A DNA stretch of 64,000 nt from Catajapyx aquilonaris (taxonomy: Eukaryota), in assembly GCA_000934665.2 (NCBI GenBank), contig KZ538105.1, positions 1-64,000 of the forward strand. Direction: 5' to 3'. The notes under the pieces were generated by a model. The model had not been told where the DNA came from, did no database searches, and worked only from the letters and a program-made list of their open reading frames with translations. This document shows, piece by piece, positions 1-64,000 of the stretch. Within the stretch, counting starts at the first letter, position 1, and each line of letters opens with the position of its first letter. A program made the translations under genes and the position numbers.

Positions 1-1536
1 TGAAATGTGCTGCACCCGCGCCAAAGTGGTGTAGGTTGTAACTACCATATGGGTCGTAAAATTTTGGGGGGTTAAAGATATATCAATGGTGGAGTATCGC
101 CCTTTTTTAAAGTTCTTGCGTGTCCCGTTTGAGTGACAGGACAATATTTGTTTGGTGGAATTATCGGAGGACAACTATCGTTAGTATCGGCGATGGGAAC
201 GATGAATATGTATGAAGTGCAATGTTTGCTGACAATGGAATATAAGGGGAGGGTCTATAAGTTCATACAGTCAATAGCAAAAATGTTGGGACAGAAAACA
301 GTCAGTAGTTGTGAAAAAAAATAAGCGATGTTGCTGAATCTGCCACAATATAATTGTAAATAAGTAAACAAACAACGAAACAAACTATTGTCCTAAAAAC
401 CATTATCGGAAAAATCCAAAGCTAAAATCTGCCATCGAACCTGCGTACATGTTAGTGAAAACAGAAAATCCTGGCTTGCTGGCTTATTATGAATATTCAC
501 ACTAAATGCATATGAAAAGAATAATGTTACTAGTGATGTAAATAACTTAAAACCTACAAAATTGGCGGATATATCCTGCAAGTTGTCTAGGATCACTTCT
601 TAGGGCAGTTCAGCCCTTTAGTGTCCAACTTGAGCCTTAGTGGACAGTCCCAAACAAATGCAGGTTTTTGGACCTATCCCTTGCAACTTCGTATTTAATA
701 ATTCAGAAACCTATTAGGTAACGGCTAATCCTGAGTTCTGTTATCATTCCCTCTAATTAGATGATCTGCAGGTGCCGGTAGTCTAGAGTCCCAAGGGAAT
801 TCGGATTGACACTGATCTCCCTAGGGGCTCCTGCAAAGAGGATTAGAAGTACCGGATCATGTTGAGATGGAAAGCCACCCAAGAATAGAGGGACTGCCAG
901 CAGCCCGCAACGCCAACAACAGCCTGCAATTAGCCCCCTCTAATTCAGATCTGGAGGGCCAGGATGAGGCTATAATACATTGTGTGATATAAAGGTAAGC
1001 TTGGGCTGGCCTCCAGCGGGAAGTCTGGGAATCTACCTATAGCAATTAAAATTTAATAATATATTATACAGAAATAGGCTGATGTAATTCTCTTTTACTT
1101 AATTATTTAAAAATTAATTTTCTGCACTTTTGATGGAATCATGGGTCAAGCCCCACCCACGCCTGTGACGTCATTCCTCCTACGACTCCGGGAATTCCCC
1201 GGCTCGTGAATCATTTCCCTCTGGCCCCCCTCGCATAAAGCTACACCACCTTATGACAGGGCCCGAAACTGGCAAAACGGGCGTCCCCAATATTTCAGTG
1301 CTAACTTGCTGCTCCCCGAAAATACCGTCTTGAGGCCAGAATTCCAGCGGGACAGAACGGAATTCATCGAGTGTAGGCGCCGGGCGTCAGTTGGCAACCT
1401 TACTCGTACATTATGCCCCGGAGTTTGCCAGCCCAACCATAAATTGCAAAAACCTGGGGAGGGGGAGGTGGGGGGTAGCTTGTAAACCAACAGATGGCTC
1501 AACTTCTCCCCCTTTGCCCTCAGTCTCTGTCAGTGG

Positions 1537-1714
1537 ACGGGAAAAAAGCCGTACCTGCAATGAGGCTAACAGAAAACAGCCGTACCTGCAGCGAGGCTAA
1601 TGGAAATCAGGTAGCTGAGCGAGTCTAACGGAAATCAGGTGGCTGATCGAGTCTAACGGAAATCAGGTGGCTGAGCGAGGCTAACGGAAAACAGCCTTGC
1701 CTGCAGCGAGGCTA
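1537..1714. repeat. Minisatellite with two related unit types (~31 bp and ~28 bp), ~6 units
   Basis: Units AACAGAAAACAGCCGTACCTGCAGCGAGGCT and AACGGAAATCAGGTGGCTGAGCGAGTCT, in the order A-A-B-B-B-A. Confidence 0.9.
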
Positions 1715-2095
1715 TAGTTTGAGGCGCACGGTCGCAGAATTTTACCATGACGAGTACCCGACCAGTAGTGCACTGCATTGTTTATCACAAGGATGCCCTT
1801 TAATCCGGCTATTCCTTTGATCCTTCTCACACCAAGCACCCTCTCGTGGGCTGACCACCTTCTCGTGTTTTCATCGCAGGTACAGAGAGGCTGGAGGACC
1901 CCAGGACGGCGCTTCAGACCTGGAGTTGAATACATTCCGTCTCTTGTATACCGAGGGAAGGGACCTTTGAAGTTGGAAGTGGCCAGGTAGATCAGCCTAA
2001 ATGAGGGTGGGGTCATCTGGGTCCTAATCAAGCTGGGGAATCTGCCTGAGGAGTTGGGTGGTATACTGTGTCTAGACATTCTTGGCTGAGGTTGG

Positions 2096-2185
2096 GAGGA
2101 TTTTGTGGTGATGGAGAAGGATTCAACTAATAGCTATAGCGTTATAGCTATTGGTTGAATCCTTCTCCATCAACACCAGATCCTC
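2096..2185. repeat. Near-perfect 43-bp-arm inverted repeat (hairpin)
   Basis: 2109-2138 pairs with 2143-2172 with one T-G. The stem extends to 2096/2185 with 2 mismatches and one more T-G. The loop is 4 nt. Confidence 0.9.
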
Positions 2186-4339
2186 ACTGTAGCTATCCAT
2201 TATTAACAATGACATAACAATACATTAATTATTGAAAATTAAGGGCCAATATTGAAATGAATTATTAACAGTTGATGTTACGCCACAACTAATCATCTTT
2301 GTAACTGGATGGTTATTATTGTTTCTATGGTTGGTTAGTGCAGTACAGATTCTAGCTAATGTATTGGCACTAGACATCCAGCAATATGTAAATAACTGCT
2401 GCGGAAAAATATTCATAGCCAGGAATAGCACTCTGATAGTCCCAACAGATTTCTGAGAGGAAATGTACGCAACATTAACCGACTGCCCTACATTCTGATT
2501 GCACACTGCAATTACATAAATGCCTTTGCTAGCTGCAAACAATGATAATAGCATAATGAACGCACTGGTGTAATCAATGACTTCTGGGAAACGTGCACAT
2601 TAATTTTTCAACCATTGCACACATTGGTCAGCATTTACTTGCTAAGAAGCGTTTGTCTTATTGACAAACTGTTTGCATATAACAATGTGATACTGTTAAT
2701 TCATATCTTGGGTGGGCCCTTATCCTTGGTGACCTCTGAGCTCTTGTTTACAAACACACACTTTCCTTTCTAGCCTTGAGAAAATAATTAGTGCACCATC
2801 AGGTCATTGCCTCTATTACTGGTTTTATGTGTATATCTTGCCAACACCACAAGACTAGGGAGAGGTCGTCAATTGTTTTCCTAGATAACCTCACGCTGGC
2901 CCTGAATGTGGTCACTTCGGATGTTGACCGCCTGCTGACTGTGGTCGACACTTCAATCCCGTTTGTTCCTGCCTCAGACCGTGAAGCACCAATTCTGTTT
3001 AAACTGTAGTTGCTGACCGTTACATATTGACAATGTACGAATTTACTGCCGTACATACACAGTATGAAGTGTAGCAATACTGCATGGCACAACAAATAAA
3101 TGACTGAACATTATGGGCTTGAATACATGAGACTGAGCAACTGGACATATACCATGTATATTTTCCGAGTGTCAAACTTTCAGAGGGATTTCAGACTTTT
3201 TAACTGCAACATGTACTGGTAGTTTCAGATAGGCCCGCGTTATGCTAATCACCATAATTATATACCCTGTGAGCGTTCTCTCCTCCCCCCCCCCCTACGC
3301 GCACAAAAGTTGAATCTACAGACACCAATTCCCAGGACAAATTTTTCAAACTTTTCATACCAATATTGAATTTAAACAATTTTAAAAACCGGGACTGACC
3401 CATTAACCTGCTTAAAAGTTAAACTACAAACTAGTTTTAATTGATTCTAAAAAATTTGATGCACCTTGGCTCCAATTTAATTAGGCAATTGTAATGAAAT
3501 AAAAAAGGATTATCCCCAAGTATACCTGTTAATCCTGAAATATTCTCTCGGTTCATGAAGGCCTACAGGGTGGTACGCTGCACAATAATTCATGAAAAGA
3601 TTGCAAATCCCCAGCTTAAGTCGCAACAATTATTTTTCTAGGCCCGCTCCTAAAAATGACACTGCAACAATTCCCATGCTGAAGAGAGTCCAGCCGTACA
3701 ATGCGATTAGCGGCCGATTAGTCCAAGTTGTTTGTGCTGACAAGCGTCGGCCATGCATATTCACCATGGGCAGTTTCCCCCTCCCAAGGCTCGAGGGCGT
3801 CGAAGAGACAGTGGTGAGCGCCATATCAGAGGGCCCAGTGGTAACCTGCAGGCCCATAAAAGCCAGATGTGGCTTCTGCTGGCCTAATGACGTCGTCTCC
3901 AGTTTCATTTTGTGTTCCACTAGGCGTCAACAGAGGCTAACCCTGAATGCGGTTCTCTTTGTCGCAGCTCCTGGAAAACCCCCAGCCGAGCTTTTCAACC
4001 AAACACAACGAACAGTCGGGGGAACGCAGGTCTCTGGAACCATGAGGGGAAAGGGGGGCCACAAAGATTTAAAAAATCCTATCTACTGTTGCCCCCCACC
4101 CCCCTCATTGCCATCTGCCCATCCAGTAAGACCGGATTTTCTATATATCATTCTGTCGTCATTTTAAAGCATCAATATTTATTAAAATATCCATTTACAT
4201 TATTCACAGCAGCCTACTGATTATTTTATTTTATTCACATTTAATTTATCAATATTGGGTTTTAAAATTTTATTGGCATGTTCTGTATTTTACCAATATT
4301 TGTATTTTATATTATCAATATTGATTCATTAAGAAATAT

Positions 4340-8770: not shown

Positions 8771-8778
8771 TATATATA

Positions 8779-12000: not shown

Positions 12001-14431
12001 CGCAAAAGCCATGGAGGCAAACGCAATCCCTCGCATTTAGCCCACTGCGTTTCCGTTTCCAAATGTTGACATTTTGCACGTTAAAAGCGCAATATTTCCA
12101 GCCTGGCGTGGATACCTCGTCAGGCGGAAAGATAAACACGGGCTCCTCGTTTACTCTCACGGAACAATCACAGACGCAGATGATATACCGAAAGCGACAA
12201 CATGAAGCGTCCCCTGGATTACAAGCGCGTCACTGAGCGGGACTCAAACATTGGAGCTGGGGAAGGACCCCTAGGGCCTGTTGACAAGAAGGGGTTTATT
12301 AACACTGATCCGGGTGCGGGATAATCCGGGATCAATGGGGGGTTGAAAGATCTGCGCGGTGGATATGCGCAGATATGCGCGTGGGGTCTGCGCATCTGAA
12401 GTGGCCGCTAATGGAAAAAGATAAGGGAAAAGATTAACAGGTAGTAAATATGTTAAAGGTGGTGACGTTAATTTCCTAGACGTGATCCGTCCGCAAAATG
12501 GCCGCCGTGGCGATTATTCTGTATATATTATGGGCGGAATTAATTGGCGTTAATCTGCTGGCCTTAATGCGGTAAAGTGAGAATTTGCAAAAAAAAAAAC
12601 GTATGTTGGTGATGGTACTTTTTGCACATTTTCATTTTATGTTCTGACTCCTTTTACCAGTTACTTTTGAATAGTACGCCATAAAATGCAAACCGTGCCA
12701 GATAAATCAAGTTCATAGATTCGGCTGTAATTGACGAGTTGTGTTTTATATTTTTAAAAGTTACTTTTAAAGCTGAAAGTTGTTTCAGGTAAATTTTTTT
12801 TGGGGCCAACATGCTGTTCACATACGTATTCTTTTGTTTTAAAAAATATATAGTGAAGTTGAAGTCCAATTATCGGAAAATTTTTAACGAGTTCTTTGTT
12901 GAATACGGCATATAAAGCCTAAGTACAAAGACCCAGATAGGCATAGGCNNNNNNNNNNNNNNNNNNNNNCCCCCCCCGTTTGTTTTTGTTGCGCTTGAAA
13001 AAGTACACCCACAGGCCATAGATACTGTACATGTGTACATGATGAGGCTGTTTTTTTGTGCTCGGCTTATGAAAACAGCCAGATTTTTTTAGAGCATTAG
13101 AGATGAGATTTTATTATAATATAACTAACCATATTTAGTAATACACCCAATATGTCCTTGGAGAGGTCATATTAAAAACTTAAAGCTAAAACAGGATATA
13201 ATAAATGTTTAATTCAACACATTGTGCACCATGTTCGTTGTAAATTAATAATTAGTTGATAAAGGCGCGTAGTTGTGCATTTACAGACATAGCTGAAGGG
13301 CAAGCTGTTTTGCATAAAAGTTTTAACTAGGTTACATGAAGAACAAAAGTCTAACTTGAGCCCCCTGTAGGCCTGCAATGTTGCAAAGTAATTCCGCATT
13401 TATAAACCAACCATTTTCTTCCCATCAAAACATAAACTAACCTTTTATAACTATTATCCAACACTTTGAATAGATTTTAAAATATTAAAAACTTACAATA
13501 ACCTAGTTACATTGAACAAATGTTATTGGTTGGCTGAACCATATTAGTTCAACTTTTAAAAAATATTATTCTAAATCTATTCGGTTTGCAAATGGTGCGC
13601 TATAATCGGATTGCATTCCTGAGTTAGTTCCCACGCCGATTACTGCATAATTAAGTAATTTTCTGCACTTCTGCAACAGCACTTAATGACCCGGTTTTCT
13701 GGACAGAATATTGCTTGTTCACGCGAGCCTTTTTCTGAGTTATTGCTCCTATTAAATGTTCGTGCTTGCAGTCCACCATAAGGCTTCTGCTGCTGCTACT
13801 GAAGGAATATAAGGGAGGAGGAGGAGAATGGGGAGGAGGGTAGCAAATTGGCCGAATAAAGTATGATGGCTCAGTTATGCTGTCGATTCGGGCCAAGGTT
13901 TCGCCCGATTTTTAATGCACTTGGATCAAAAATGGATGGGACTATCAAGAATCCGTCTGGTTGGAAGGATGCAAATTTTTTGGGAGAAAAATATTGCAGA
14001 TTTGGAAATGGCACGATATGCAGATGGTAGGAAGATTTCGGTGAAAAGTGTGCTGAATAAATTTGTATGTACAGTTCTTATGGTCAGTTGTGTCCATCAA
14101 AGTGTTAGGCTCATTTTTAAGTATGCAGACACAACCTAAAAATGCTGTTTTAACAATTAGGAAATAATGTGTAAAAATAATGTATTTAATTTCTATGGAT
14201 TGCCAAATGTGCAATAGTTAGTTGATGCAACATAACTTATGACTATTTTTCAGGAATTTTTCGGATGAATCAGGACGTACCGGTAGCTGATATTTCCTAT
14301 ACAACAACAACAACAACGACAATCAGAAAGGTGCTTTCGCCTTTTTTTTTTGGTGTTTTTCTGACTGATATAAACGATATTTTTTTTAAAAAATACTTTT
14401 TTGATATATCACATAGCAGAGAAATATCATA

Positions 14432-14433
<2 letters not shown>

Positions 14434-14500
<67 letters not shown>

Positions 14501-14514
14501 TATTATTATTATTA
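14434..14514. repeat. (TTA)n microsatellite
   Basis: ~27 TTA units with one interruption. Confidence 0.97.
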
Positions 14515-16240
14515 CCCATTGGTAGCCATTAACAGGCTTTTATCATCATGTATGGTACATTCCATATGCTCGTACAAAAATAAAATGACTAAATATTAAT
14601 TAAAGTTCATATTTTAATTATACACTAAATATACGTTACTTTAGTATAAATTTGGTACTGATGGATAAATTTGCTATTAAAACGTTAATACCATTAGGGC
14701 ATCATCGATATGCAAATCCTGGCCACGTTAAACACCGTCTTAAAAATGGCAATTGCCTTCATTGCTCTTCAATTACACCTCTTAATTAATCCCCATCCCA
14801 AACTTTGTAACCATCGCTCAGATGACCAAATTAAGCCTAACCTTTTGACCCATCTGGAAAGCACTATAACTCAGTTGCACCAGGTGCAATCGCACATAAA
14901 ACCGCAGCAGGTGTGCAGGAAACGTGCAAAAAAAATCCCCAAAATCTTCAAGTTGCATCAGCGTCTTCCTCACACCTTCCTTTAACTGCCCTAGCAACCT
15001 CCTCCGATTGCTTCGAAAGAATGAAATCTAGTTTCGCACTTGGCAATGCAGTGGCATCCAAAGGGAAGGGTCCCCCCCCCTCCTCCTCCTCCTCCTCTAA
15101 TCTATCGGTGGAAAATGGCGCAATTGCAGGGCTGATTGGGACGTGATCACACTGCGAAAATTCTTTTTATGTGACCATAAATGTTTACGACTCGAAGAAG
15201 GTGTGGGGGTAAGAAGCGCACAGATGCTACGACTTAGACTTTAGACCAGGGGTAATTAGACACCTTTAAAAAATTCCAACTGCCATAAATATCGGAAAGG
15301 TATCGCTGAAGACACTCCGATCAATTTCTTTCATCTGGCAATAAAAGATAAGACATTCTTAATTTATCCGCTACAAATTACGCAAATATTTCACGCCCCA
15401 CACAATTACCAAAAGTCTATAAAAAATAGATCGGGGCCAATGGGTTTCATTTGCACGATTTTTGGGGGCTAATTAGGGAAAATGTTAATTATAAGTGTAA
15501 GTTTGGGAGGGCTTGGTTTTTGCGGAGTCAGGACCCCAGATAGGACCGGTCCATAAATTTTAGGGAGGGGGGTAAAGCAAGAAGAGGGATTTTAAAGAGT
15601 TAAAGTATAAAGAACAACAGAGAAGGGCGGGGTATAAATTTGGCGCCCCCCAGTAATTTGGCCCAAAAATGGACGTACCTCTAGGGACAGAAGCCAATGT
15701 CAATCATGGAGTTTAGTAGGCCTTGGCCGCATTTCCTAAAGCTCTATTCTATAATAGAGCAGTCAGAACCAAACCGCTTCTAATAATAATACGACCTAAT
15801 TCCTGGAAAGCATTTCGGTCCTCATTATGGCAGATGACAGGTGTGTTAATTTAACAATGCCCACCAGCAGTCATGATTTTAGCAAATAATAATTTGGTAG
15901 AAACAGTTCAGGTCAATATTTAGTCAAATATTTAAGATCTAATCGACCGAAAAACTTACGCGGAATTTCGGAGCCTGATTGTTATCCAAAACTACTGGAT
16001 ACTAGATTTTCCTTCAGTACATTGTTGAGTGCGATTGTTTCCTCAAAATATTGCTGAACTCGTTGGTTCAGTAAAAAAAACGTAAGTGCTGACTTTTATA
16101 AGGAAATGTCGTGATGATGATGAGAAAGTGCAAAAACCACTCGAAATAATTTAGAAAGTGACGCACTAGCACCGCCCACTACACGTGTATACGCACTTCT
16201 AGGAATCTGCTCATATATCCCCCCCACCTTTCTCCATATA

Positions 16241-46865: not shown

Positions 46866-48899
46866 TATATAAGGGCAGAAAATAATTTTATTGCTAATAC
46901 TTCGCAATTTTTCAGAAATTTATTCAGCCATTTTATATTTTGCGAAACCTGAATATAAATTTTCAAAAATTTGACTATGCTACATGTGCGCTTTAACTCG
47001 GCCGTGGGCTTGCTTTAAAACAATACTAGTGCTGACACGCTCTTTTTTTTTAAAAAAATTAAAGTCCTCCAAACATAAAAATCGAGCAGGCAAATCTCAT
47101 TACCCTCATCCGCATATGCAAATTCCCTTCTCTTTTTAATATATTGATATATTCTAATTTCTAGCCCTTTCCACACTTGGAAAGGTCTTGATTCAATTGA
47201 TGTTTGAACAGTACCGACAACTATTCAAACTATTGGATGTGCGCACATGCTAAAAACGTCCAGTCCACTTCCTCAATTACCTATCCAATAGTTATTTGAG
47301 AGTTTCTATTGGAAACTTTGGCGCAAACGGCTCAGTTAGGTTGAATTGGTTTATTTTATTTTTGTTCTAGCCTCCTTTTTTTCGGCCCTTCTTACAGTTG
47401 GAAAAGTACACTAAGAGGCGTCGACGATGCCCCGGAGATTGGATAAGCTTGGAAAGAAGCCTTCCGCCAATTCAGTCCTCACTGTAAAGCTCCAAGATGG
47501 CGGAGGGAATTTCTGCGAATTGCATTCAGGATTGCCAATGACCCCTCAGGTTAAAGCCAGGGGGTCATTGGTATGGGGCTGGGCCAAGCATATGGAATCG
47601 AGCTGGCTTTTTCTCTCTCTCTCTTCTTGCTGAGAACCGCCAGATTAGGTCCTGAAAATAACGCAGAGGATTTCCTGGGGAGGCCACAGATATGCCAAGT
47701 CACGTAACTGGATGGGTGCTTTTTGTTTGAGGACTGATTGAAATTAATTAGACTAGTTGGATTAAAAATGGCGGACATAAAATGGCACTGGTCACTTTTA
47801 GCCTCAGATGTGTATAAATATGATCAAAATTTTCAGACTATTTCGCAGGCCAGATGGTTTGATTCAATATTGACGTCAACGGTTGAGCAACACGAGCAAA
47901 CAACTTTCACCGTTCTATTGTGTCAAAATCGCTCGTCTCTTCAAAGATTACATTCTATTTACGAACCTTTTTTCCCCCCATCCCACAACATGACTTTCCA
48001 CATGTCCTGTCAGCTCTTCGCCTTAATCTCTCATCTTCTGCCACCCTTCGTGAGAAACATGGAAATCAATTCTCCTCAACAATCCGCACCTGCTCAAAAT
48101 CGTGGCATCAATCAACTTGGTCAAAAAAATGAATAATCGTGGATAAAGGAAAAACGTCCTCAAAAAGTGGGAGGAGTTAGAAAACGTCACGACCTATCGC
48201 GCCAAACGGTCAAATTATCGAAAAATCGATTTTAGATACATCGGTTGTTCGATATATCCACAGGAGCCCTCTTTGGAAAAATTTTGCTTTGCAGTCATGG
48301 TAGGTTGTATGTACATGTTGTAAACTGTAAATGCATGTTGTTGTTTTTTTTGCCCCGTGGTGGGCATATGGCCAACGGCCGGTTGTGTGCACACATCATT
48401 ACCATATCTGATGTTATTATGCCAAATAAGGGAGCCGGGCCTTGCCAAGGCACAAAGGTGCGCCCTTTTGAAAGGAAGCTCAAACGTGCCAAACTTGTGG
48501 CAATAACTGTCAAAAGATATCATATGAGGGGCTCTTTTGTTTGGGTGCTTTAGGAGGCGGGTGCTGCTGGTAGCGGAGGTCATGTTCTATTAACACGATT
48601 TTATAGACACAAAAGGGGGCTACCGGATTGGTATAGTAGGCAGCATATCAGCAAAACTTGTACGCAATAATGTTACGACAATATTATGAAAAATTAACTA
48701 TGATTCGTGAACATAATAGTTCATTATACGTGCAGAGAAGCCTGCCCCGTAATATGTTTTAAGCAGTGAAAGTTATGGCAATAATGAACTTTAACCTATG
48801 ATTGCCCCGAATAACAATGTATAGGCTACAATACTAAATAGAACTTAAAAATAATTTGAAGACATTATTTATAGAAATTCAGAAATTCAACCATCTGCA

Positions 48900-49300
48900 T
48901 AAAAGTATTTATCTAAATGCATAAAAATATTTCCTATAGGTGCATAGGGTTTGGGAATATTTTTATACATTTATATTCTAAATTAGCGTTCTTAAATTTT
49001 GGGACAGGTAAACAAATATATTCACGTGCCTGCATCAATTTCATTTGCATGACCCAAAATGACGTATAAAATTATTTGCCCATATGTATATAAAAATATT
49101 GATCTAAATTATTTTAGATTAATACTAAATACTAAATTTTAGATAAATGCTTTCATACAGTATATACATATGGGCAAATTATTTTATACATCATTTTGGG
49201 ATAGGTAAATAAAATTGATGCAAATATATGAATATATTTATTTACCTGCCCCAATATGCACCTTAGTAAATATTTTTATTCATTTAGATTTAGACGAATA
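48900..49300. mobile_element. Old AT-rich fold-back element
   Basis: CCCAAAATGACGTATAAAATTATTTGCCCATATGTATATA / TATATACATATGGGCAAATTATTTTATACATCATTTTGGG, with degenerate outer arms. Confidence 0.7.
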
Positions 49301-51004
49301 CTTTTATACATTTCAGGGCAGGTTTTGCCCCAAAATTCGTTCACCTTAGCGCATATTTGTATGCATTTAAAGCTGTATGCACTTTTTGCAATCAAATCTC
49401 TGTCATTTCCTCACTCAATTTCCGTCAACACTCGAAAAAAACCATTAAAAGTCCCGTTCTCCTCCTTTAGCACCACCAACCCCGTGGGAAGAAACACCCC
49501 CACATAAAACAAAACCGTCTCCGAACATATTTCACACCCATCCTTCTCTCCCCAGGTGTCATGGATATATAACTCCCCCCTTTACAAAACGCATAACATC
49601 ACTTGGCTCCAAATGACCATGCACTGTGGCTCACGGCTAGTTAACCGTGGTCCGTTCGTTATACCCCGAGAACGGGACCGTGTACCTGGGGCTGGCACAC
49701 AAGACCATGACAAGGGTGATTGAAGAGTCTGCCTGTCATTGAGGACGACTAATGAGATGGGCTTAGCGGAGGTTCACGGCTTGTTCGGTAATCTCTTCAG
49801 TGGGGAAGGCGGGACACAGAGAAGAGAGGAGCTCATAAAAACTTCATCAGGCTCAGACCAGCATTTAGGTCCGCATGGGATCGAATTACACCTCTTTTTG
49901 TCGTCTTTTTGCGTGTGTCGGATTGTATGGACCGCTAAGGACTGAAGCCGTGACGCCATGACAGTCAGCGATCCGAATGCGGCTGCGCGTGCACCCAAAT
50001 GCGCCTGAACTATTCAGTAATGTACACAATATTTAATGACTACATATATTCCAAATTTTAAACATTTTCAGTAAGCTACTCTGTGGCAGACCTACTAATA
50101 TGGCGGCCAATTTTGGCTTCAAATTTCTCAACAGTTGGAGTGGGCGGAGCAAGGGTCACGTGCCCCCGCCGATCACCCCTTTTGACCCCGTCCAAATGGG
50201 AGGCTAGTGCCAGGGATCGAAGCCAGCAAGAGCCTTGTGCGAAATGGGCTCCTAAATCACTTATCCGGTGGGTGGACCACCGCTCTCCTTCTCCTTTTCT
50301 TTTTCTTGTGTGTGTGTGTTCTTCTTGTGCGCCTTGGGGATGACCTCTGAGGAGTAGCCCCAGCATCCGTGATGGGGGCTATCTGCACCATCACCGCCGA
50401 CATCTGCTCTTAGCCCGGCCACTTCTGACCCTTTCTCTTCCCCCCTATTACTTCCCATGCCCCTTGATTTATACACCGGAGCGCCTCTTATAGAATGTTG
50501 GGAGACGGTGCGGATGCCACATAATTCCTCCAAAGAAAAGAGCCCGGCTCAAGAAGAATGGCCTCTACTAACTCCTCACTCCTGCTATATCCTTCCTTAT
50601 ATCTCTCCAGGAGGATATCGCCATTCTCCTTTTTTCCGGGTTGCCTCCAAGTTGCTCCCAAAATCGGTATAATTGCGAGTATAGGGTGCTTCTGGATTGT
50701 TCCGACTTGGAGACGAGACAGTGTTGTCTCGTCTCCAAATCGGAACAATTATTGTGAGCATTCAGACCTGTCCTATCTAGGAGAGTAGCGTCATATAATG
50801 ACGCCAGCACGTCCGAATGTTTATATTTTTAAAAATGTAGAATTATATGTTAAGTATTCATTATAAAAACATTTAACTAGGCATGTCCTTAAATTATAAT
50901 TTTTATGAAAATTATTTTGACATTTTCAATATTTATATACACATAGCGTTGGACATGCTTCCATTTTTGAACCAACATAATTGCACTTTAAAAATTACTT
51001 TTGT

Positions 51005-57834: not shown

Positions 57835-57918
57835 GCCAACGGTCAGCCAACGGTCATTTGGGCCAACGGTCGTTTGAGTCAACGGTTATTTCCTCCAACG
57901 GTCGGGCGTCCCAACGGA
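57835..57918. repeat. Short degenerate (C)CAACGG array
   Basis: CAACGG occurs six times within ~85 bp. Confidence 0.7.
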
Positions 57919-58690
57919 AAAATCCATCTCCGATATGAAATTAGACGCTAAATTCAATTTTTCCCAAGTTCAGAGTTACATTAGTCGTATGTCACCGCAC
58001 CCTAGCTCCTCCTGTTGCTAATGTATAGCCAGAAGGGGATTAGGTCTAATTTAGGATGGGTTTCGATCCAGCCAAAAGAGAGGGGGGCAACATACACACA
58101 ACAAGAGGGGAGAAGCTCTTCGTGTTCTGGAGGGGAATATTGTGCACTTTGGCGTCACACTTTCTGGTCATGATTTATCCAAATGTTTAATGAGTCTTGT
58201 GGTGGGTTGCTGGGGTAGATAAGAAAAGGGGGTCTGGATCGATAGGGTCGTTCGAACCGGAATTTCTTTCACGTACCATCTTGGGACATGTCTCCAAACA
58301 TTCGGTATGTCGCTCCAGCACCCCTCCAGAAGACGTGATCACATTTTTGCAGACGTAGTGCTGACTTTTCAAGAATTCTGGGACAAAAAAAAGAAGAAAT
58401 GTCTTTCGAGTAAAGGCCAGTATTTAAGCCGTTTAAAGTGGCGGATCAAGAGAAGTGCATGGAAAGTGGGGCAAGGGCAGGGCAAAATCTGGTAAAAGGA
58501 AAAGTGCTGGAAGCTTTTGGTTCAAGGGCGGCCCTGGAATTTCGACGGCCAAGGGCTGCGGGCGCTTTCATATGGGCAGCAGCGCTGGAGCACCGGAATA
58601 ATCGGGGAACAGTTGGGACTTTTCTTGCTATCAGACCTTAATGAAACGCGGTCCTGTTATTAAGGCCTGATGTCGCATACAAAAGGGGGG

Positions 58691-58790
58691 GAGGCCATAT
58701 TGAATGACGTCACTCACTGATGATGGTATCGATATTTTCAGTTTAAAAATTATTACACATCGTCGAGCTTGACGTCATCCAATATGGCCT
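58691..58790. repeat. 100-bp inverted-repeat element (MITE-like)
   Basis: GAGGCCATATTGAATGACGTCA / TGACGTCATCCAATATGGCCTC, 21 of 22 positions paired. Confidence 0.75.
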
Positions 58791-59586
58791 CAATTTTCGT
58801 GCTAAGACTGTATGAACCATAGTTAAATTATGTAGTGCAAGCCTGAATAACATTGCGAAATTATCGACAGTTGCGTCACCTGGGGGCGTTTAGGTTGGTT
58901 ATGAAGGTAAGTACAGTAATATTTGTAGAGAACTGTGTGCTATTGGCTCAGGCCTATCTGACGAAATGCGTATTATAAGCAAATATTATTTTCACTGCTA
59001 TGGGTGGGCGTATGGCCACATAAAATTAAACATACGGTAGTATGATTAATATTTACATATTTTGAAAGGTAATTACAGGTACGTGTGATTACATATAGAA
59101 GTAGTGTCATTGAACTAATATTTATGAGCTGAAGTGATCTGAACAGCATGCCCGAGTGTATTCCCATCCCTTGACGTAAGGAACAAAACAGCAATTGAGG
59201 CTGCGTACCTTAATTTTTTACTATAGTCTATTTTAAAATACGAACTGACGACATTTAATATAATACAATTAATTATAAAGCACAATAGAAAACCAAACAC
59301 AGCAATTTTCATCCTAAACATACAGTATTTTAAATGCATCATCAGTGTACGCTACCAGCCAAGCCAACTTTAAACTTTTTAAAAACACAACCAAGCTTGA
59401 AAATTTATCGTCAACCACGTATTCAGTTTAACATTTGAAAAGATTGATGCCGAACTTGCCCCATCGTTTACCACCCTAATGAATTAACCGCACCGATAAA
59501 TACGCAAAATATGCCTAATCACATAAGACCCCTTCATGTCCCATAAATCTGGCCCAATTCCCACCAGTTTAGTCGAAACCCCCCCC

Positions 59587-59803
59587 NNNNNNNNNNNNNN
59601 NNNNNNNNNNNNNNNNNNNNNNNNNNNNNNNNNNNNNNNNNNNNNNNNNNNNNNNNNNNNNNNNNNNNNNNNNNNNNNNNNNNNNNNNNNNNNNNNNNNN
59701 NNNNNNNNNNNNNNNNNNNNNNNNNNNNNNNNNNNNNNNNNNNNNNNNNNNNNNNNNNNNNNNNNNNNNNNNNNNNNNNNNNNNNNNNNNNNNNNNNNNN
59801 NNN
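59587..59803. other. Assembly gap (217 N) flanked by poly-C
   Basis: Run of N. Confidence 0.99.
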
Positions 59804-59929
59804 CCCCCCCCCCAAAAAAAAACCCACCTAACAATGCACCCAACTGATTTTTGAATAATGTACCAGAAGAGTCAACTATTTAACTAATTGTATTTTGTGA
59901 TGTATCTAGCTAAATAGAAATATGCACTA

Positions 59930-60160
59930 GTGTGGAAAAATGCACTAGCCTGAATAATATGCATCTAGCTGAATATAAAAATGCATTAGCAGAATAAAAT
60001 GCATGTAGCTGAATATAAAAACGCATTAGCTGAATAAAATGCATCTAGCTGAATATAAACATGCATTAGCTGAATGAAATGCATCTAGCTGAATGTAAAC
60101 ATGCAGTAGCTGAATGAAATGCATCTAGCTGAATATTAAAATGCACCTAGCTGAATAAAA
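59930..60160. repeat. ~19-21-bp dimeric minisatellite
   Basis: GCATCTAGCTGAATATAAA(A/C)ATGCATTAGCTGAAT(A/G)AAAT repeated. Confidence 0.9.
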
Positions 60161-61144
60161 AAACACACTAAATTGAATAAATGTTTCTAACAATTTGGAG
60201 CCTATTTGCATCCCATTATTTATTATGACGTATCCAAAAGGGGGTAAGTTGTCCTCATGAAATGACATCGGGTCAATTTTGGCAAGGGTGTTAACTGGGC
60301 AATAGAATTTGGGTGAAGGTGAATGAATCATGACGGTGGGGTTAATTTATCCAGTCTGATATTGGGGGCGGGGTGGGGAGGGAAGGTTTACCGTCATAAT
60401 TTTATGAACTCTTAATTAGGCATTTCATATTATGTTTACCCTGCGGCCGTGGAAGCTAAATTCACCAGTCCTGTGGACTATAAGAATTTGTAATCACCAC
60501 AAATTACGTGGCGCAAGAACGCTTTTTTTTTGGAAGGGGGGGCAACGGGGGTAGGGGGGGGGGACTATCCCGATGGGTTGCCTCTGGGTGTTTGTGCAAT
60601 CCGGCCGCAAGGACATTTTATGCAAGCCTGGAAATCAAATTGTAATTTGGTTTTCCAGCCGACTGGGGATATTCGGATGTTAAAAAAAAAGAGAGGTGGT
60701 CCTACGCACTGGTCCCAAACCATCAAAATATAACCGGTCGTAAAAGGGGAAGGGATGGTTTCAAACTATTATGAGGGACCAAAAATGACTGAAACACCAG
60801 GAAAAAAAATACGGACGATCTGTATTGTTACAAAAAGATATGTTGGAATGATCAAAATGGTGGGAATATATTTATTGCGCGGATATTTTGATAGTAATCG
60901 GTGTGATTTTACGCTCAGAATACCTTGAAATTGGACTGTGCACATGAGTAGGTTTAATTATTACGTTTGAGTGATCAGTGGTTGCAACAATTGAGTGTGA
61001 ATTTATCAACTTCTGAGTGGTGAGTAAGCTTCACTCATTATAGCCCAAAAATTTAATCAACCGGATGCAGATTTTCTTTCGGAATTGACAAAATTAGACA
61101 TATATTTTAAAACGAGGCAAATTTTTGTGAATTAATATTGAAAC

Positions 61145-61248
61145 CAAGGGGTTACACACTCGACTGTAAAGTGTACACCGGAGTACCACTGGTAGTACCA
61201 AAAAGTACAACTGCAGGCGTACCGAGTACTGAAGTGGTTAACCCTTTG
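61145..61248 (+). mobile_element. Short (104 bp) copy of the 55939-56559 family
   Basis: ATTGAAAC|CAAGGGGTTACACACTCGACTGTAAAGTGTACACCGG...AGTGGTTAACCCTTTG|GTTGAAAC, TSD matches 7/8. Confidence 0.88.
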
Positions 61249-62572
61249 GTTGAAACAATAGTCACAATTTTATTTCAAATTCTGTGCACTATTTGCATAA
61301 TAAATATTTGCATAAAAAGTACTAAAATGTCACTTTTTAAATAAAATATTGATGAAAATGAGCCATCAATTCATCAAAATTTATTACGTCCAAATAATCG
61401 ACATTTTGACCATTTCCAGAACCAATGACTGTTTCTCACACCCCCAACATTTCCCAGCACCCTCAACCACACCGGACATGACTTTTTTCCCTCCCTAACT
61501 CCAAAGGGGCGTGATTCGTTGAAAACCTTAACGATCTCTTAACCCTCCCCCTTCCCGAAAATTAAAATCTCGACCACCCCTCCCCTATAAGTCCGGAAAG
61601 TCATGCCGAGACGTGTCTAAAGTTCCTATGAGAAACCTCACCCCACACCAACCCACAGGAATGAAACAAAAATTCTCCCCCAAAAAAATATTCCCACGAA
61701 GAATTTCGACACATTTTTTGGGTTACAAAAAAATGAAATATCTTATGTATATGTAACAATGGCTGCCCACTTCATTGTCTAAAAGTCGGACTTATCTCAC
61801 GTCCGCTGACAGTTCTGGGGAACAAAAGGCTGCTCAACAATTAGGCCCCGGACACCCTCCCTCTGGTGGCCGCAAGAGACTCATCAGCAAACGTATACCC
61901 CGCCATTGGCCATGAAGAACACAATGAAAATTAAATGAGATAATCTCTCAGCTGCTTCTACCCCCATCATCTTTTTATCACTTCGACATACCATATTATT
62001 TCTTAACATTACAGCTTATTATTTTCTCAGCTCCCAGCTGTGCCTCTAGACCATTTCCGCTAATTATTTCAACGCCTTTGGTGCAAAGAATAGAGCGCCT
62101 GCTGCTTCATTATAGGTTGGCATCCCTGCGATTGAGCGATTTCAATAAAAGCCACAAACTCACGGTTCAAATAGCTTAAAGAAAGAAAAAAAATAGCGGT
62201 TAGCTGCTTGCGGCCAGCAACTTCTTTTTCCATGAATTAAGTGCAGCTTCACGCCTCATTTGTTCCAAGCTGACCGTGTCTACTTGACGAGAGTCGTTAC
62301 CACGGCCACAAATGCTGGACCCCCAGCCCCCTCTTTTCATTTTCCAACATTGCTCTGGTGTAATGGAACGATACGCAATTACAGGCCTCGTACCGGGAAT
62401 CTCGTTACTGTATGTCACTGAGACTGGGTCGGTAGTAGTTTCAGTCAGTTTCTCTAAGGCTAGGTTTTGGTCGTGGTCCAAAGGCTAGGAGCCGCCTACT
62501 TATTAGGCAGCCTCGCTCCAGGCTGCTTCACGACTAGCTACAAATTCAAGCCTCCCCCTAGGTCCACCCAGT

Positions 62573-62588
62573 CAGCGCCATCTAGTGG
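62573..62588 (-). promoter_or_regulatory. CTCF consensus motif
   Basis: Minus strand CCACTAGATGGCGCTG. Confidence 0.6.
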
Positions 62589-62630
62589 GGACGTCACATG
62601 TAATTCGTTTAAAAATCATACCACTTTTTG

Positions 62631-62864
62631 CAAGGGGTACTCCGGTGTACATCTGCAGTGGTACTCCTTACCAGGTACTCCTTAGGTACTCCAATGTACA
62701 CTTTACATGCGCGAGTGCACGTTAAAGATCCCCAGAGTGGCCAAATTTCCAGGAGGAGGAACACCCCCTGGCGTCGCGTCGGTATTGAGCCTTGAGGCAG
62801 AATAAGGCCTACGTTAAGCCCCACTGATAAGTGTACACTTTACAGTCGAGTGGCTAACCTCTTG
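62631..62864 (-). mobile_element. Inverted copy of the 55939-56559 family carrying a SINE insertion
   Basis: ACTTTTTG|CAAGGGGTACTCCGGTGTACA...TTTACAGTCGAGTGGCTAACCTCTTG|CCTTTTTG, TSD matches 7/8. Confidence 0.88.
62708..62831 (+). mobile_element. 5'-truncated SINE with 13-bp TSD
   Basis: TGTACACTTTACA at 62695-62707 and 62832-62844; the insert is homologous to 17787-17909. Confidence 0.85.
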
Positions 62865-63044
62865 CCTTTTTGTCATTTATCATCCTGTTGGCATTCTGAA
62901 CTATCCACCAGTCTCGCCAGCACCATCTAGTGATGGTAGAGAGGCTCTTGAGAGAGAGTCGCCAACGGCTGACGTCACGGTCGACTCCAATTTGCTGGAG
63001 TAGTACAAGCCTTCTGACTCCAGCCAATCGGAGTCGACCGTGTC

Positions 63045-63864
63045 GTCAGAGCCGGCCACTATTTCCAAGATGGCCGCCTCCATAGGACTGTAGTTTATGT
63101 CCTACTGTTGAAGTCAGAATTGGCGACTCTCTCCCTCGAACCACTCTAAGTGGTGGATGTCACATTTAATTCATTTAAAAAAATATGTACCAGCAGATTT
63201 TATCCTTAACTGATGCAACGTCAGAGACGGCCACTTTCCAAGATGGCGGCCTCCATAGGACCATAGTTACCAGGCAATCAGAGACGACCGTGACGTCAGC
63301 ATTGGCTACTCTCTCCTTCGAGGCGCTCCAATTCATTTAAAAAAATGTACTAACAGGTTTAATCCTTAACTGATGCAACGTCAGAGACTGTCACTATTTC
63401 CAAGATGGCGGCCTCCATAGGACCATAGTTACTCCAGCCAATCAGAAATGACCGTGACGTCAGAATTGGCGACTCTCTCCTTCGAGGCGCTCCAATTCAT
63501 TTAAAAAATGTACTAACAGGTTTAATCCTTAACTGATGCAACGTCGGAGACGGTCACTATTTCCAAGATGGCGGCCTCCATAGGACCATAGTTACCAGCC
63601 AATCAGAGACGACCGTGACGTCAGAATTGGCGACTCTCTCCTTCGAGGCGCTCCAATTCATTTAAAAAATGTACTAGCAGATTTAATCCTTAACTGATGC
63701 AACGTCAGAGACGGTCACTATTTCCAAGATGGCGGCCTCCATAGGACCATAGTTACCAGCCAATCAGAGACGACCGTGACGTCAGAATTGGCGACTCTCT
63801 CCTTCGAGGCGCTCCAATTCATTTAAAAAATGTACTAGCAGATTTAATCCTTCACTGATGCAAC
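63045..63864. repeat. ~161-bp satellite (~5 copies)
   Basis: TTTCCAAGATGGCGGCCTCCATAGGAC at 63560 and 63721 (161 apart), and at ~63062, ~63235 and ~63396. Confidence 0.95.
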
Positions 63865-64000
63865 CTTCCCACACGTTTGGTGTCAAAATGGCCTACATCC
63901 TAACTTATTGCTTCTTAAGCGTCCTTTTCCTCCATTTCACAAGTTTGCTCCGATCCAGCTTGAAGCCCAACCCAAGATTTATTTCCTTCCAAGTCTTCCG

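What the first reader, a model, noticed from the sequence alone, without database searches (positions are those of the whole stretch)
1..64000. Quasi-periodic ~1.3-2.3 kb architecture: G-rich ramp, AT valley, C-rich ramp
Seen: AT-rich valleys recur across the whole window. Approximate centres are 0.45, 1.1, 2.4, 4.5, 5.85, 8.8, 10, 11.5, 13.1, 14.4, 19.7, 21.3, 23.0, 25.9, 27.8, 32.9, 34.7, 36.6, 40.5, 43.3, 46.7, 49.0, 51.0, 52.7, 55.2, 57.4, 59.3 and 61.1 kb. On the + strand most are preceded by G/T-rich DNA and followed by C/A-rich DNA. Examples: G 13800-14130 / C 14750-15100; G 25500-25740 / C 26200-26450; G 40050-40270 / C 40660-40880; G 48480-48640 / C 49400-49600; G 60240-61030 / C 61420-61700. 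The units share no alignable sequence, so this is compositional dyad symmetry and not a repeat family. Exceptions exist, e.g. 3280 and 9160-9500. Inference: a strand-asymmetric process radiates from each GC-balanced island. Candidates are divergent transcription, fixed replication or repair polarity, or regularly spaced chromatin barriers loosely analogous to vertebrate nucleosome-inhibiting barriers but much wider. This is my best candidate for an undescribed system.
Basis: partly seen in the sequence, partly recalled or inferred. Interest (0 to 1): 0.75.

Follow-up and report, generated by a model that had tools for sequence, protein, structure and literature searches.

The report
GC-skew flip at AT-rich valleys
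In this non-coding, mostly single-copy DNA, the top strand switches from G-rich to C-rich across each deep AT-rich dip; the pattern is real but not regularly spaced, and it looks like the footprint of a DNA process centred on those dips.

Summary
The core observation holds; the headline "quasi-periodic architecture" does not. Deep AT-rich valleys are flanked by about 400 bp of G>C DNA on the left and C>G DNA on the right. Of 29 objectively called valleys, 12 are G|C and 1 is C|G (mean left-minus-right skew +0.18, p=2e-4; 0 of 646 shifted controls reach it). The link between GC content and the skew switch is negative in 8 of 8 blocks. It survives tandem-repeat masking, circular shifts and block-flip controls (z about -3 to -4). 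GC% and skew are coherent in quadrature (-96 degrees) in the 1.3-2.3 kb band.

No significant spectral peak or regular spacing was found (P 0.06-0.13). The T/A half of the claim is weak. The two flanks behave independently. The flanks are not inverted repeats, not a repeat family, single-copy where tested, and non-coding.

Near valleys, C falls and G rises at constant GC. G4 and GGN motifs lie 350-700 bp 5' of valleys on either strand.

My best guess (about 0.3) is a mutational footprint of recurrent breaks and resection at AT-rich sites. Rivals are an origin-like G4 grammar, transcription, and ancient repeats. I rate it a new variant of known kinds, of moderate interest; it needs genome-wide replication.

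The parts
13800..14130 (.). G-rich ramp, left arm of the 14.5 kb unit; contains a (GGA)n / GGN cluster
   Evidence: GC skew +0.43, GC 0.41; sequence read
14131..14749 (.). AT valley, holding a (TTA)27 microsatellite at 14434-14514
   Evidence: GC 0.26, skew -0.03; TRF
14750..15100 (.). C-rich ramp, right arm; ends in (CCT)n and a C9 run
   Evidence: GC skew -0.37
25500..26450 (.). Unit around the 25.9 kb valley: G ramp 25500-25740, valley 25741-26199, C ramp 26200-26450
   Evidence: skews +0.27 / -0.15 / -0.47, valley GC 0.35
32300..33700 (.). Unit around the 32.8 kb valley. A plus-strand G4-like motif lies at 32308-32353, the valley holds 22/43-bp tandem repeats at 32842-32962, and minus-strand G4 motifs lie at 33315-33332 and 33669-33683
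   Evidence: valley 32791: left +0.14, right -0.26; G4 list; TRF
35900..36650 (+). One-sided case: a G-rich flank with two G11 runs / G4 motifs (35911-35926, 36023-36039) 5' of the 36.5 kb valley
   Evidence: left skew +0.33, right +0.04
40050..40880 (.). Unit around the 40.5 kb valley: G ramp 40050-40270 (G4 at 40076-40095), valley 40271-40659, C ramp 40660-40880
   Evidence: skews +0.43 / -0.09 / -0.54, valley GC 0.32
48480..49600 (.). Unit around the 49.1 kb valley: G ramp 48480-48640, valley 48641-49399 (holds a MITE-like inverted repeat at 48996-49257), C ramp 49400-49600
   Evidence: skews +0.32 / -0.04 / -0.58, valley GC 0.28; IR; single-copy depth about 35 in X1
58000..59830 (.). Unit around the 59.2 kb valley. 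The C-rich arm runs into an assembly gap at 59587-59803 that is flanked by C runs
   Evidence: valley 59194: left +0.20, right -0.43; single-copy contig 56518-59585
59900..60160 (.). Counter-example: an AT-rich 40-bp minisatellite valley with the opposite (C|G) polarity
   Evidence: d = -0.74 and -0.62; TRF 59936-60160
60240..61700 (.). Strongest unit: G ramp 60240-61030 (G4 motifs at 60364-60382 and 60536-60563), valley 61031-61419, C ramp 61420-61700
   Evidence: skews +0.31 / -0.07 / -0.50; d=+0.6. Single-copy apart from a short repeat near 61145-61230

Best explanation
WHAT IT IS (shown; my confidence about 0.85). The window is non-coding, mostly single-copy, eukaryote-type DNA. It carries a strand-symmetric compositional polarity. 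On whichever strand is read 5'->3' towards a deep AT-rich valley (GC <0.34, about 300 bp wide, often holding an AT-rich tandem repeat), the preceding 100-500 bp have G>C by about 9-10%. On the plus strand this reads as G-ramp, valley, C-ramp. Each flank follows the rule independently (about 64% of flanks), so full G|C units arise in about 40% of valleys. The shape has a characteristic size of about 1.2-2 kb but does not form a periodic lattice. The skew is diffuse: C is replaced by G at unchanged GC and A/T content.

HOW IT MOST LIKELY WORKS (inferred; confidence about 0.3). The AT-rich valleys are intrinsically nucleosome-poor, fragile sites that are broken again and again in the germ line, as meiotic or other double-strand breaks. 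5'->3' resection exposes the 3'-ended strand on each side: the plus strand on the left and the minus strand on the right. Damage to exposed cytosines, followed by error-prone fill-in, removes C from that strand, largely as C>G. Over evolutionary time this leaves G>C on the left and C>G on the right, within one resection length. The same breakage and end-joining would seed the tandem repeats seen in the valleys.
For: SHOWN.
- Polarity and controls.
- Flanks independent: skewL against skewR gives r=-0.11. 18 of 29 left flanks and 19 of 29 right flanks follow the rule, which predicts 11.9 G|C; 12 were observed.
- Extent: the skew is seen at 100-500 bp and is gone beyond about 600 bp.
- Base change: at -450 to -250 bp, C is 0.19-0.20 and G 0.23-0.24. 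The baseline is C 0.22, G 0.21. A, T and GC are unchanged.
- Count excess in 58 oriented flanks: G-C = +923 but T-A = +307. Transitions alone (C>T, A>G) would give equal excesses, so the ratio points to a C>G-type exchange.
- Dinucleotide asymmetries follow from the mononucleotide skew, and G runs are barely more clustered than C runs. The skew is therefore diffuse, not motif-driven.
- 11 of 26 deep valleys hold tandem arrays, against 9.7% array cover of the window.
- Not coding, not a repeat.

FROM PAPERS (passages read).
- At human hotspots the single-stranded DNA lies left of the break on the forward strand and right of it on the reverse strand. The flanks show strand-asymmetric C>N and A>N mutations with off-centre C>G, A>G and C>A peaks, and structural variants in hotspots often break in tandem repeats (PMC7615360).
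Against: - No break, recombination, chromatin or polymorphism data exist for this organism, so every mechanistic step is inference.
- Stable hotspots in species without PRDM9 are usually expected to gain GC through biased gene conversion (recalled, not checked here), yet these centres are AT-rich. GC shoulders at -650/-550 bp are slight (0.45-0.46 against 0.42-0.44).
- The skew extends only about 500 bp. That is shorter than the 1-2 kb per side given for human resection (PMC7615360).
- The predicted loss of A on the exposed strand (T>A) appears only weakly (p=0.10).
- One site per about 2 kb is dense.
- A deep valley at 60.0 kb has strong opposite polarity, and 4 of 32 unmasked deep valleys are C|G.
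- All of this comes from one 64-kb window; it may not hold genome-wide.
Confidence: 0.3

Rival explanations
1. Origin-like sequence grammar. G-rich or G4-prone DNA (OGRE / GGN clusters) sits a few hundred bp 5' of an AT-rich, nucleosome-poor initiation site on each strand. It is kept by selection or by origin-linked mutation, and it marks many potential replication start sites.
For: - Strict G4 motifs: 8 of the 8 that lie within 700 bp of a valley have the valley 3' of them on the G strand, at 350-690 bp. With the loose definition it is 11 of 12.
- GGN clusters within 1 kb of a valley: 82 have the valley 3' and 41 have it 5'.
- Published topology: plus-strand G4 upstream and minus-strand G4 downstream of a centre of low nucleosome occupancy in T. 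brucei (PMC13179062, abstract and passages).
- A G-rich stretch upstream of the initiation site, coupled to a region of lower G and C content, in human and mouse (PMC7506530, passages).
- GGN clusters within 1 kb of nucleosome-depleted regions in six eukaryotes (10.1101/2024.01.04.574144, abstract only).
Against: - The skew is diffuse rather than motif-driven. It comes as much from loss of C as from gain of G, at constant GC.
- GGG counts exceed the first-order expectation by only about 9% (my arithmetic).
- The G4 orientation may simply follow from the skew, so it is not independent evidence.
- In T. brucei the A/T polarity is poly(dA) upstream; here T is, if anything, slightly in excess upstream.
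- Leading/lagging mutational skew at an origin has the opposite sign (C|G), by established knowledge of skew jumps at origins (recalled).
- One site per about 2 kb is denser than mapped origins (recalled).
- No replication data exist for this organism.
Confidence: 0.2
2. Transcription-coupled skew. Short non-coding units are transcribed convergently into the AT valleys (equivalently, divergently from the GC-richer DNA between them). This makes the non-template strand G-rich. It is the reader's first candidate.
For: - The sign fits if the non-template strand gains G over C, as in mammalian introns (recalled knowledge).
- C|G polarity is seen at GC peaks and at shallow minima.
Against: - Transcription-coupled asymmetry in mammals gives T>A of similar size to G>C (recalled). 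Here the T-A excess is a third of the G-C excess.
- Poly(A) signals show no orientation at the valleys: AATAAA 22 against TTTATT 22 in the last 200 bp.
- The skew is tied more tightly to valleys than to GC peaks.
- There are no CpG-island-like peaks; CpG o/e is 0.73-0.80 in all classes with GC >=0.30.
- No exons or ORFs were found.
Confidence: 0.12
3. Relics of ancient polar elements, now too diverged to align. Candidates are retroposon-like bodies abutting AT-rich tails, as Alus abut human nucleosome barriers, or old inverted duplications. Only composition survives.
For: - In human, Alus lie sense at the 5' edge and antisense at the 3' edge of AT-rich barriers, with their bodies outside (PMC4966569, passage). 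This shows that such a dyad can arise from insertions.
- The window does hold MITE-like repeats, several of them in valleys.
- Copies under 80% identity would escape.
Against: - The skewed ramps in 47.5-62.9 kb sit at single-copy depth, even at >=80% likeness.
- Sensitive BLAST among 58 flanks gives only 3 hits, all from one MITE pair.
- Left arms against the reverse complement of right arms share no more k-mers within a unit than between units: 7.7 against 7.2 8-mers. Alignments exceed every shuffle at only 2 of 13 centres: a MITE, and marginally (31 against 30) the (GGA)n arms at 14.45 kb.
- There is no A-rich tail polarity in or next to the valleys.
- Inverted duplication predicts G|C and C|G equally often, not 12 to 1.
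Confidence: 0.13
4. Local idiosyncrasy. The pattern is real in these 64 kb but is not a property of the genome. It would be a regional quirk helped by analyst choices of window sizes and thresholds.
For: - Only one window is available.
- The effect is modest (r squared about 0.08; 64% of flanks).
- The count of G|C valleys alone is only P=0.046 against shifts.
- Taken over all 56 minima there is no bias.
Against: - 8 of 8 blocks are negative.
- The result holds across five parameter sets, masking, and three kinds of null.
Confidence: 0.15

Closest known systems
Eukaryotic replication-origin topology (OGRE/G4 or GGN cluster upstream of the initiation site; stranded SNS-seq model in T. brucei)
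   Same: - G-rich or G4-prone DNA on the plus strand upstream, and on the minus strand downstream, of a low-GC centre, at a few hundred bp.
- The literature orients origins by this same asymmetry (PMC7506530, PMC6499314, PMC13179062).
   Different: - No initiation data exist here.
- The skew is diffuse (C replaced by G), not motif-clustered.
- The A/T polarity differs from T. brucei.
- The sites are much denser, about one per 2 kb.
Strand-asymmetric mutagenesis around meiotic double-strand-break hotspots (PMC7615360)
   Same: - The dyad geometry: the forward strand is exposed on the left and the reverse strand on the right.
- Loss of C on the exposed strand, with C>G prominent.
- The effect is confined to the resection range.
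- Tandem repeats lie at the centres.
   Different: - In human this is a de novo mutation signal at transient PRDM9 hotspots, not a fixed compositional skew.
- The range there is 1-2 kb per side, against about 0.5 kb here.
- The centres here are AT-rich valleys, not motif-defined.
- Nothing here shows that breaks occur.
Nucleosome-inhibiting energy barriers (NIEBs) of vertebrates (PMC4966569)
   Same: - AT-rich barriers flanked by GC-richer DNA.
- About one per 1.7 kb and about 152 bp wide in human (my arithmetic from the paper's totals), against about one per 2.1 kb and about 300 bp here.
   Different: - In the passages I read, NIEBs are described by GC content and poly(A)/poly(T) edges; those passages mention no G-versus-C strand polarity.
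- No nucleosome energy model was run here.
- A/T-run polarity at the edges is absent here.
Skew jumps at replication origins / transcription-coupled skew (human N-domains, mammalian introns; recalled knowledge)
   Same: A sign change of strand composition at a defined point, produced by a strand-asymmetric process.
   Different: - The scale is kb here, not 100 kb to Mb.
- The sign at valleys is that of a terminus, not an origin.
- The TA skew is much weaker than the GC skew.

Membership tests
   Band power for GC is 0.235 against AR(1) 0.179 +/- 0.047 (P=0.12); GC skew P=0.07; TA skew P=0.09. The autocorrelation bump is only 0.07-0.12 at 1.7-2.1 kb.
CV is 0.58 against 0.70-0.74 +/- 0.12 in block shuffles, P=0.06-0.13.
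   Coherence is 0.26 against 0.05 in the null (P=0.017), with phase -96 degrees in the 1.3-2.3 kb band. The cross-correlation is antisymmetric: -0.22 at -300 bp and +0.21 at +200 bp. This shows a characteristic unit shape, not a lattice.
Inverted-repeat element (MITE, foldback, palindrome) | Left arm complementary to right arm | tested here: not met
   Local alignment exceeds all shuffles at 2 of 13 centres: the MITE at 49.1 kb and, marginally, (GGA)n at 14.45 kb. Shared 8-mers are 7.7 within a unit against 7.2 between units.
Dispersed repeat / retroposon with AT-rich tail | Multiple copies in the genome or window | tested here: not met
   Ramps sit at single-copy depth at >=80% likeness across 47.5-62.9 kb (only 15.4 of 64 kb was laid). 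Among 58 flanks there are 3 BLAST hits, all from one MITE pair.
Dispersed repeat / retroposon with AT-rich tail | A-rich tail 3' of the body on the sense strand | tested here: not met
   TA skew in the valley core is about 0. A and T runs show no polarity, Fisher p 0.36-1.0. AATAAA and TTTATT are equal.
Replication-origin topology (OGRE/G4/GGN upstream of a low-GC initiation site) | G4 or G-rich DNA on the plus strand upstream and on the minus strand downstream of the centre, within a few hundred bp | tested here: met
   G4: 8 of 8 (strict) and 11 of 12 (loose) have the valley 3', at 350-690 bp. GGN clusters: 82 against 41.
Replication-origin topology (OGRE/G4/GGN upstream of a low-GC initiation site) | G clustered into repeated motifs beyond what composition gives | tested here: inconclusive
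   GGG is 473 against about 432 expected from GG and G counts; CCC is 248 against about 249 (my arithmetic). The skew arises as C loss plus G gain at constant GC.
Replication-origin topology (OGRE/G4/GGN upstream of a low-GC initiation site) | Nascent-strand initiation, or ORC/MCM binding, at the site | not testable with these tools
   No replication data are available; the organism is coded and only DNA runs were found.
Break hotspot with resection-linked asymmetric mutagenesis | C (and A) depleted on the forward strand to the left and on the reverse strand to the right | tested here: inconclusive
   The C part is met: the G-C excess is +923 in 58 oriented flanks, and C falls from 0.22 to 0.19. 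The A part is weak: T-A +307, with a valley-level p of 0.10.
Break hotspot with resection-linked asymmetric mutagenesis | Breaks or recombination mapped at the centre | not testable with these tools
   No break, LD or pedigree data are available.
Transcription-coupled skew (convergent or divergent units) | G>C together with T>A of similar size on the non-template strand, and oriented poly(A) signals at unit ends | tested here: not met
   The T-A excess is one third of the G-C excess. AATAAA 22 against TTTATT 22 in the 200 bp before valley centres.
Nucleosome-inhibiting barriers (NIEB-like) | AT-rich barrier of nucleosome-linker scale, flanked by GC-richer DNA, about one per 1-2 kb | tested here: met
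   Valley GC is 0.30-0.35 over about 300 bp against 0.43-0.46 in the flanks. Mean spacing is 2.1 kb. No nucleosome energy model was run.
Protein-coding genes / exons | ORFs with known domains, or 3-base periodicity | tested here: not met
   0 of 174 stop-to-stop ORFs >=75 aa reach a Pfam gathering score; two are weak sub-threshold hits. The period-3 signal equals that of shuffles except in tandem repeats.

The most novel reading that the evidence does not exclude
The genome carries a dense set (about one per 2 kb) of hard-wired, AT-rich, nucleosome-poor sites. A DNA transaction starts at them again and again in the germ line: either double-strand breakage with resection or replication initiation. 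Each site has imprinted, or is specified by, a C-to-G strand asymmetry reaching about 500 bp to either side. If so, the positions and polarity of break or initiation sites could be read directly from the sequence of a non-model animal.
Probability: 0.2. Interest if true: 0.75.

Novelty: new variant of a known kind. Interest (0 to 1): 0.5.

Why it matters
If the polarity holds genome-wide, it gives a purely sequence-based marker of where a strand-asymmetric DNA process is anchored in a non-model eukaryote. It would mark this at kilobase resolution and in DNA that is neither genic nor repetitive.

That would make two debated questions directly testable:
- whether metazoan-type origin signatures (G-rich upstream, AT-rich centre) are functional grammar or mutational scars;
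- whether stable break sites leave the long-term compositional skew that the human de novo mutation data predict.

It also shows that a reverse-complement-invariant statistic (skew switch against local GC) can pick up such sites without any annotation.

If it does not hold genome-wide, this is a local curiosity.

Tried and rejected
- **Whole genome:** none is held for this window, so no genome-wide or cross-species replication was possible.
- **Earlier findings of this scan:** four look-ups returned nothing.
- **Rfam at gathering and tRNA scan:** no hits.
- **RNA evidence:** no RNA holder was listed for 36.6-46.0 kb. Only four DNA runs of one sample, plus one unrelated run of the same species label, were found, so nothing can be said about expression.
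- **Read-through six-frame Pfam scan:** I replaced it with the full ORF list and a period-3 test. Exons under 75 aa with no periodicity signal could still be missed.
- **Inverted-repeat origin of the arms:** rejected.
- **Repeat-family or retroposon-tail origin:** not supported.
- **Tandem repeats as the cause:** rejected. Masking 6,223 bases leaves or strengthens the signal.
- **G-run artefact:** removing G/C runs >=3 lowers the flank skew from 0.087 to 0.050 but does not abolish it.
- **CpG-island-like promoters at GC peaks:** not seen.
- **Pure cytosine-deamination (transition-only) model:** disfavoured by the 3:1 ratio of G-C excess to T-A excess.
- **Assembly artefact at poly-G:** considered because the N gaps sit at G/C runs. 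However, the skew is diffuse over 500 bp, and independent contigs of four runs span the ramps.

Full report
**What the window is.**
- The window is 64 kb at 41% GC, with 250 N and CpG o/e 0.79.
- Only two ORFs of 150 aa or more exist.
- None of the 174 stop-to-stop ORFs >=75 aa reaches a Pfam gathering score. The only entries are two sub-threshold hits, E 0.0036 and 0.0024, the second inside a minisatellite.
- Three-base periodicity equals that of shuffled sequence outside tandem repeats: median 0.82 against 0.82, and 95th percentile 2.25 against 2.05.
- Rfam and tRNA scans are empty.
- The window holds MITE-like inverted repeats (30 pairs) and many AT-rich mini- and microsatellites (65 TRF rows).
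- No genome is held. Sequencing-run look-up found four DNA runs of one sample with a coded organism name, and no RNA holder.
- I laid their contigs on 47.5-62.9 kb at >=80% likeness. The G-rich and C-rich ramps there sit at the single-copy level (about 22-45 in X1). High-copy sequence is confined to short segments: bins at 54.2-54.7, 55.7-56.8, 60.9-61.4 and 62.4-62.9 kb have depths of 1,300-14,600.
- So this is non-coding, largely unique, eukaryote-type DNA.

- 25 of the 28 named valley centres have GC <=0.37 within +/-150 bp; three are 0.39-0.44.
- All five example pairs hold. Left GC skew is +0.27 to +0.43, right is -0.37 to -0.58, and the stretch between has GC 0.26-0.35.
- Left-minus-right skew at the 28 centres is positive at 21, zero at one and negative at six.
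- Both named exceptions are real: 3200-3400 has skew -0.35 and 9160-9500 has +0.23.
- In these examples the left arms are not T-rich (TA skew -0.10 to +0.05). Four of the five right arms are A-rich.

**Objective tests of the polarity.**
- Over all 56 minima there is no bias: 28 are positive and the mean is 0.008.
- The bias appears with valley depth.
  - After masking 6,223 bases of tandem repeats and N, the 29 minima with GC <0.34 give 12 G|C and 1 C|G. Mean left-minus-right skew is +0.176 (t-test p=2e-4; Wilcoxon p=2e-4). It is reached by 0 of 646 circular shifts. The G|C count alone is P=0.046.
  - Unmasked, 32 minima <0.34 give 13 G|C and 4 C|G (p=0.004).
  - Shallow minima at GC 0.36-0.40 show the reverse, 2 against 7. 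That is what is expected where the C ramp of one unit meets the G ramp of the next.
- Window-wide, the correlation between the skew switch and local GC is -0.27 to -0.30, with z -3.1 to -4.3 against circular shifts. The widest of five parameter sets gives z -2.5.
- The correlation is negative in 8 of 8 independent 8-kb blocks.
- It exceeds a null in which 200-300-bp blocks are reverse-complemented in place: z -3.5, 0 of 400.
- At the lowest-GC tenth of positions, G-left/C-right occurs at 41% and the reverse at 5%.
- The valley-centred metaplot shows skew of about +0.10 from -450 to -100 bp and -0.08 to -0.13 from 0 to +500 bp. It returns to zero beyond about 600 bp.
- Around GC peaks the mirror pattern exists but is weaker and untidy.

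**Periodicity.**
- Power in the 1.3-2.3 kb band is not significantly above AR(1) noise: P=0.12 for GC, 0.07 for GC skew and 0.09 for TA skew. The autocorrelation bump near 1.7-2.1 kb is 0.07-0.12.
- Objective valley spacing averages 2.1 kb with CV 0.58, against 0.70-0.74 in block-shuffled controls (P=0.06-0.13).
GC% and GC skew are coherent in the 1.3-2.3 kb band (0.26 against 0.05, P=0.017) with a phase of -96 degrees. The cross-correlation is cleanly antisymmetric.
- I read this as a characteristic unit shape about 1.2-2 kb long, not a lattice.

**What the units are not.**
- The arms are not decayed inverted repeats.
  - Alignment of the left arm to the reverse complement of the right arm beats every shuffle at only 2 of 13 centres. 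These are a MITE at 49.1 kb and, marginally, the (GGA)n arms at 14.45 kb.
  - Within-unit k-mer sharing equals between-unit sharing.
- The flanks are not a repeat family.
  - Self-BLAST finds mainly tandem arrays.
  - Sensitive BLAST among 58 oriented flanks gives three hits, all from one MITE pair.
- They are not retroposon bodies with A-rich tails. TA skew in the valley core is about zero, A and T runs show no polarity, and AATAAA equals TTTATT.
- Tandem repeats do not cause the signal. They do mark the valleys, though: 11 of 26 deep valleys hold arrays, against 9.7% cover of the window.

**Anatomy of the skew.** I read all 58 flanks 5'->3' towards their valley.
- G is 5,779 against C 4,856, and T is 7,975 against A 7,668.
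- 18 of 29 left flanks and 19 of 29 right flanks obey the rule, and left and right skews are uncorrelated (r=-0.11). Independence predicts 11.9 G|C valleys; 12 are seen.
- So the polarity is a property of each valley edge, not of a coordinated dyad.
- By position, at -450 to -250 bp C falls to 0.19-0.20 and G rises to 0.23-0.24. The baseline is C 0.22, G 0.21. A, T and total GC stay put.
- CCC triplets halve (84 against about 177) while GGG barely changes.
- Dinucleotide asymmetries are those expected from the mononucleotide skew, and G runs are hardly more clustered than C runs (my arithmetic).
- The skew is therefore diffuse and behaves like a C-to-G exchange. Transitions alone would have produced equal G-C and T-A excesses, not 923 against 307.
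- As a consequence or a cause, G-quadruplex motifs are strongly oriented. All 8 strict motifs lying within 700 bp of a valley have the valley 3' of them at 350-690 bp, as do 11 of 12 loose ones.
- GGN clusters within 1 kb of a valley are oriented 82 to 41, and G runs >=4 lie 54 left to 21 right.

**Mechanism.** The statistic is unchanged by reverse complementation. Randomly ordered, randomly oriented patches cannot favour G|C over C|G, so a strand-asymmetric process anchored at the valleys is required. Three known processes have the right sign.

1. *Double-strand breaks with 5'->3' resection.*
   - Passages of PMC7615360 state that the single-stranded DNA lies left of the break on the forward strand and right of it on the reverse strand.
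   - They also state that the flanks carry strand-asymmetric C>N and A>N mutations, with off-centre C>G, A>G and C>A peaks, and that small structural variants there often break in tandem repeats.
   - PMC5880243 (passages) shows that AT-rich, nucleosome-depleted DNA forms SPO11 hotspots in Arabidopsis.
   - This model explains the sign, the dominance of G/C skew over A/T skew, the limited reach and the tandem repeats.
   - It does not explain the AT-rich centres if biased gene conversion acts, and it does not explain the short range.
2. *Origin-type topology.*
   - PMC13179062 (abstract and passages) places plus-strand G4s upstream and minus-strand G4s downstream of a centre of low nucleosome occupancy.
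   - PMC7506530 (passages) describes a G-rich stretch upstream of the initiation site, coupled to a region of lower G and C content.
   - The abstract of 10.1101/2024.01.04.574144 places GGN clusters within 1 kb of nucleosome-depleted regions in six eukaryotes.
   - PMC6499314 (passages) argues that the skew at Arabidopsis origins is not purely leading/lagging mutation.
   - The geometry matches. The diffuse, C-loss nature of the skew and the site density argue against a motif grammar.
3. *Convergent transcription.* The weak TA skew and the unoriented poly(A) signals speak against it.

I put the break/resection footprint first at about 0.3, and the origin-like grammar at 0.2. Ancient repeats get 0.13, transcription 0.12, and a merely local quirk 0.15.

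**Comparison with the known, and verdict.**
- The AT valleys themselves resemble vertebrate nucleosome-inhibiting barriers. Human has 1,581,256 barriers covering 241 Mb of 2.68 Gb (PMC4966569), which is one per 1.7 kb and about 152 bp each by my arithmetic. Here the figures are one per 2.1 kb and about 300 bp, so they are not 'much wider'.
- What is added here is a G-versus-C strand polarity at the barrier edges in unique non-coding DNA.
- I found no statement of that polarity for such barriers in the passages I read, or in searches. Those searches cover open-access text only and are not proof of absence.
- I file this as a new variant of known kinds.
- The single most useful step is to repeat the metaplot genome-wide.

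Noticed in passing
window-wide; e.g. 8454-8476, 28222-28234, 30937-30948, 33669-33693, 35916-35926, 36029-36039, 39071-39091, 54069-54083, 59579-59813, 60536-60563: G/C homopolymers are about four times over-represented: 161 runs >=5 against about 39 expected from base frequencies. Thirteen runs are >=10, and several take the form T(n)G(n) or C(n)A(n). Six of the seven N stretches (all but the single N at 6569) adjoin or lie near a G or C run of 5 or more, so run lengths there are probably under-called by the assembly.
   Followed up: partly
54183-54696, 55725-56752, 60865-61378 (core near 61145-61230), 62407-62900: These are short, very high-copy segments. Summed contig depth is 1,300-14,600, against about 30 for single-copy DNA in run X1. 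They break every run's contigs. Family and type were not determined.
   Followed up: no
63168-63864: A 161-bp tandem repeat with 4.3 copies and 94% matches. Its unit carries strings that, from memory, resemble promoter boxes (an AAGATGGCGGC-like box and a CCAATCAG-like box). Similar strings occur at 36690 and at 58690-58790 inside a small palindrome. The resemblance is recalled, not tested.
   Followed up: no
16257-16537; 48996-49257; 8783-9002; 23873-24046; 7065-7733: MITE-like inverted repeats with arms of 71-113 nt at 85-97% complementarity. There is a nested set of four arm pairs at 7.07-7.73 kb. Several sit inside AT valleys (8.6, 27.8, 46.7 and 49.1 kb).
   Followed up: partly
31205-31383: A perfect (100% matches) 42-bp tandem repeat with 4.3 copies. 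It is GC-rich, unlike the AT-rich arrays in the valleys, and presumably very young.
   Followed up: no
38602-38749: A GC-rich 20-bp tandem repeat (7.4 copies, 90% matches) inside the most GC-rich kilobase of the window (GC 0.53).
   Followed up: no
59900-60160: An AT-rich 40-bp minisatellite valley lying between two strong G|C units. It has the strongest opposite (C|G) polarity in the window, d -0.62 to -0.74. It may be a young array inserted at a unit boundary.
   Followed up: partly
whole window, plus strand: A exceeds T overall (19,392 against 17,851), and AATAAA outnumbers TTTATT 146 to 79. Most of this probably comes from A-rich minisatellites on the plus strand (19.2-19.9, 34.5-35.2 and 52.6-52.9 kb), but I did not test that.
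   Followed up: no
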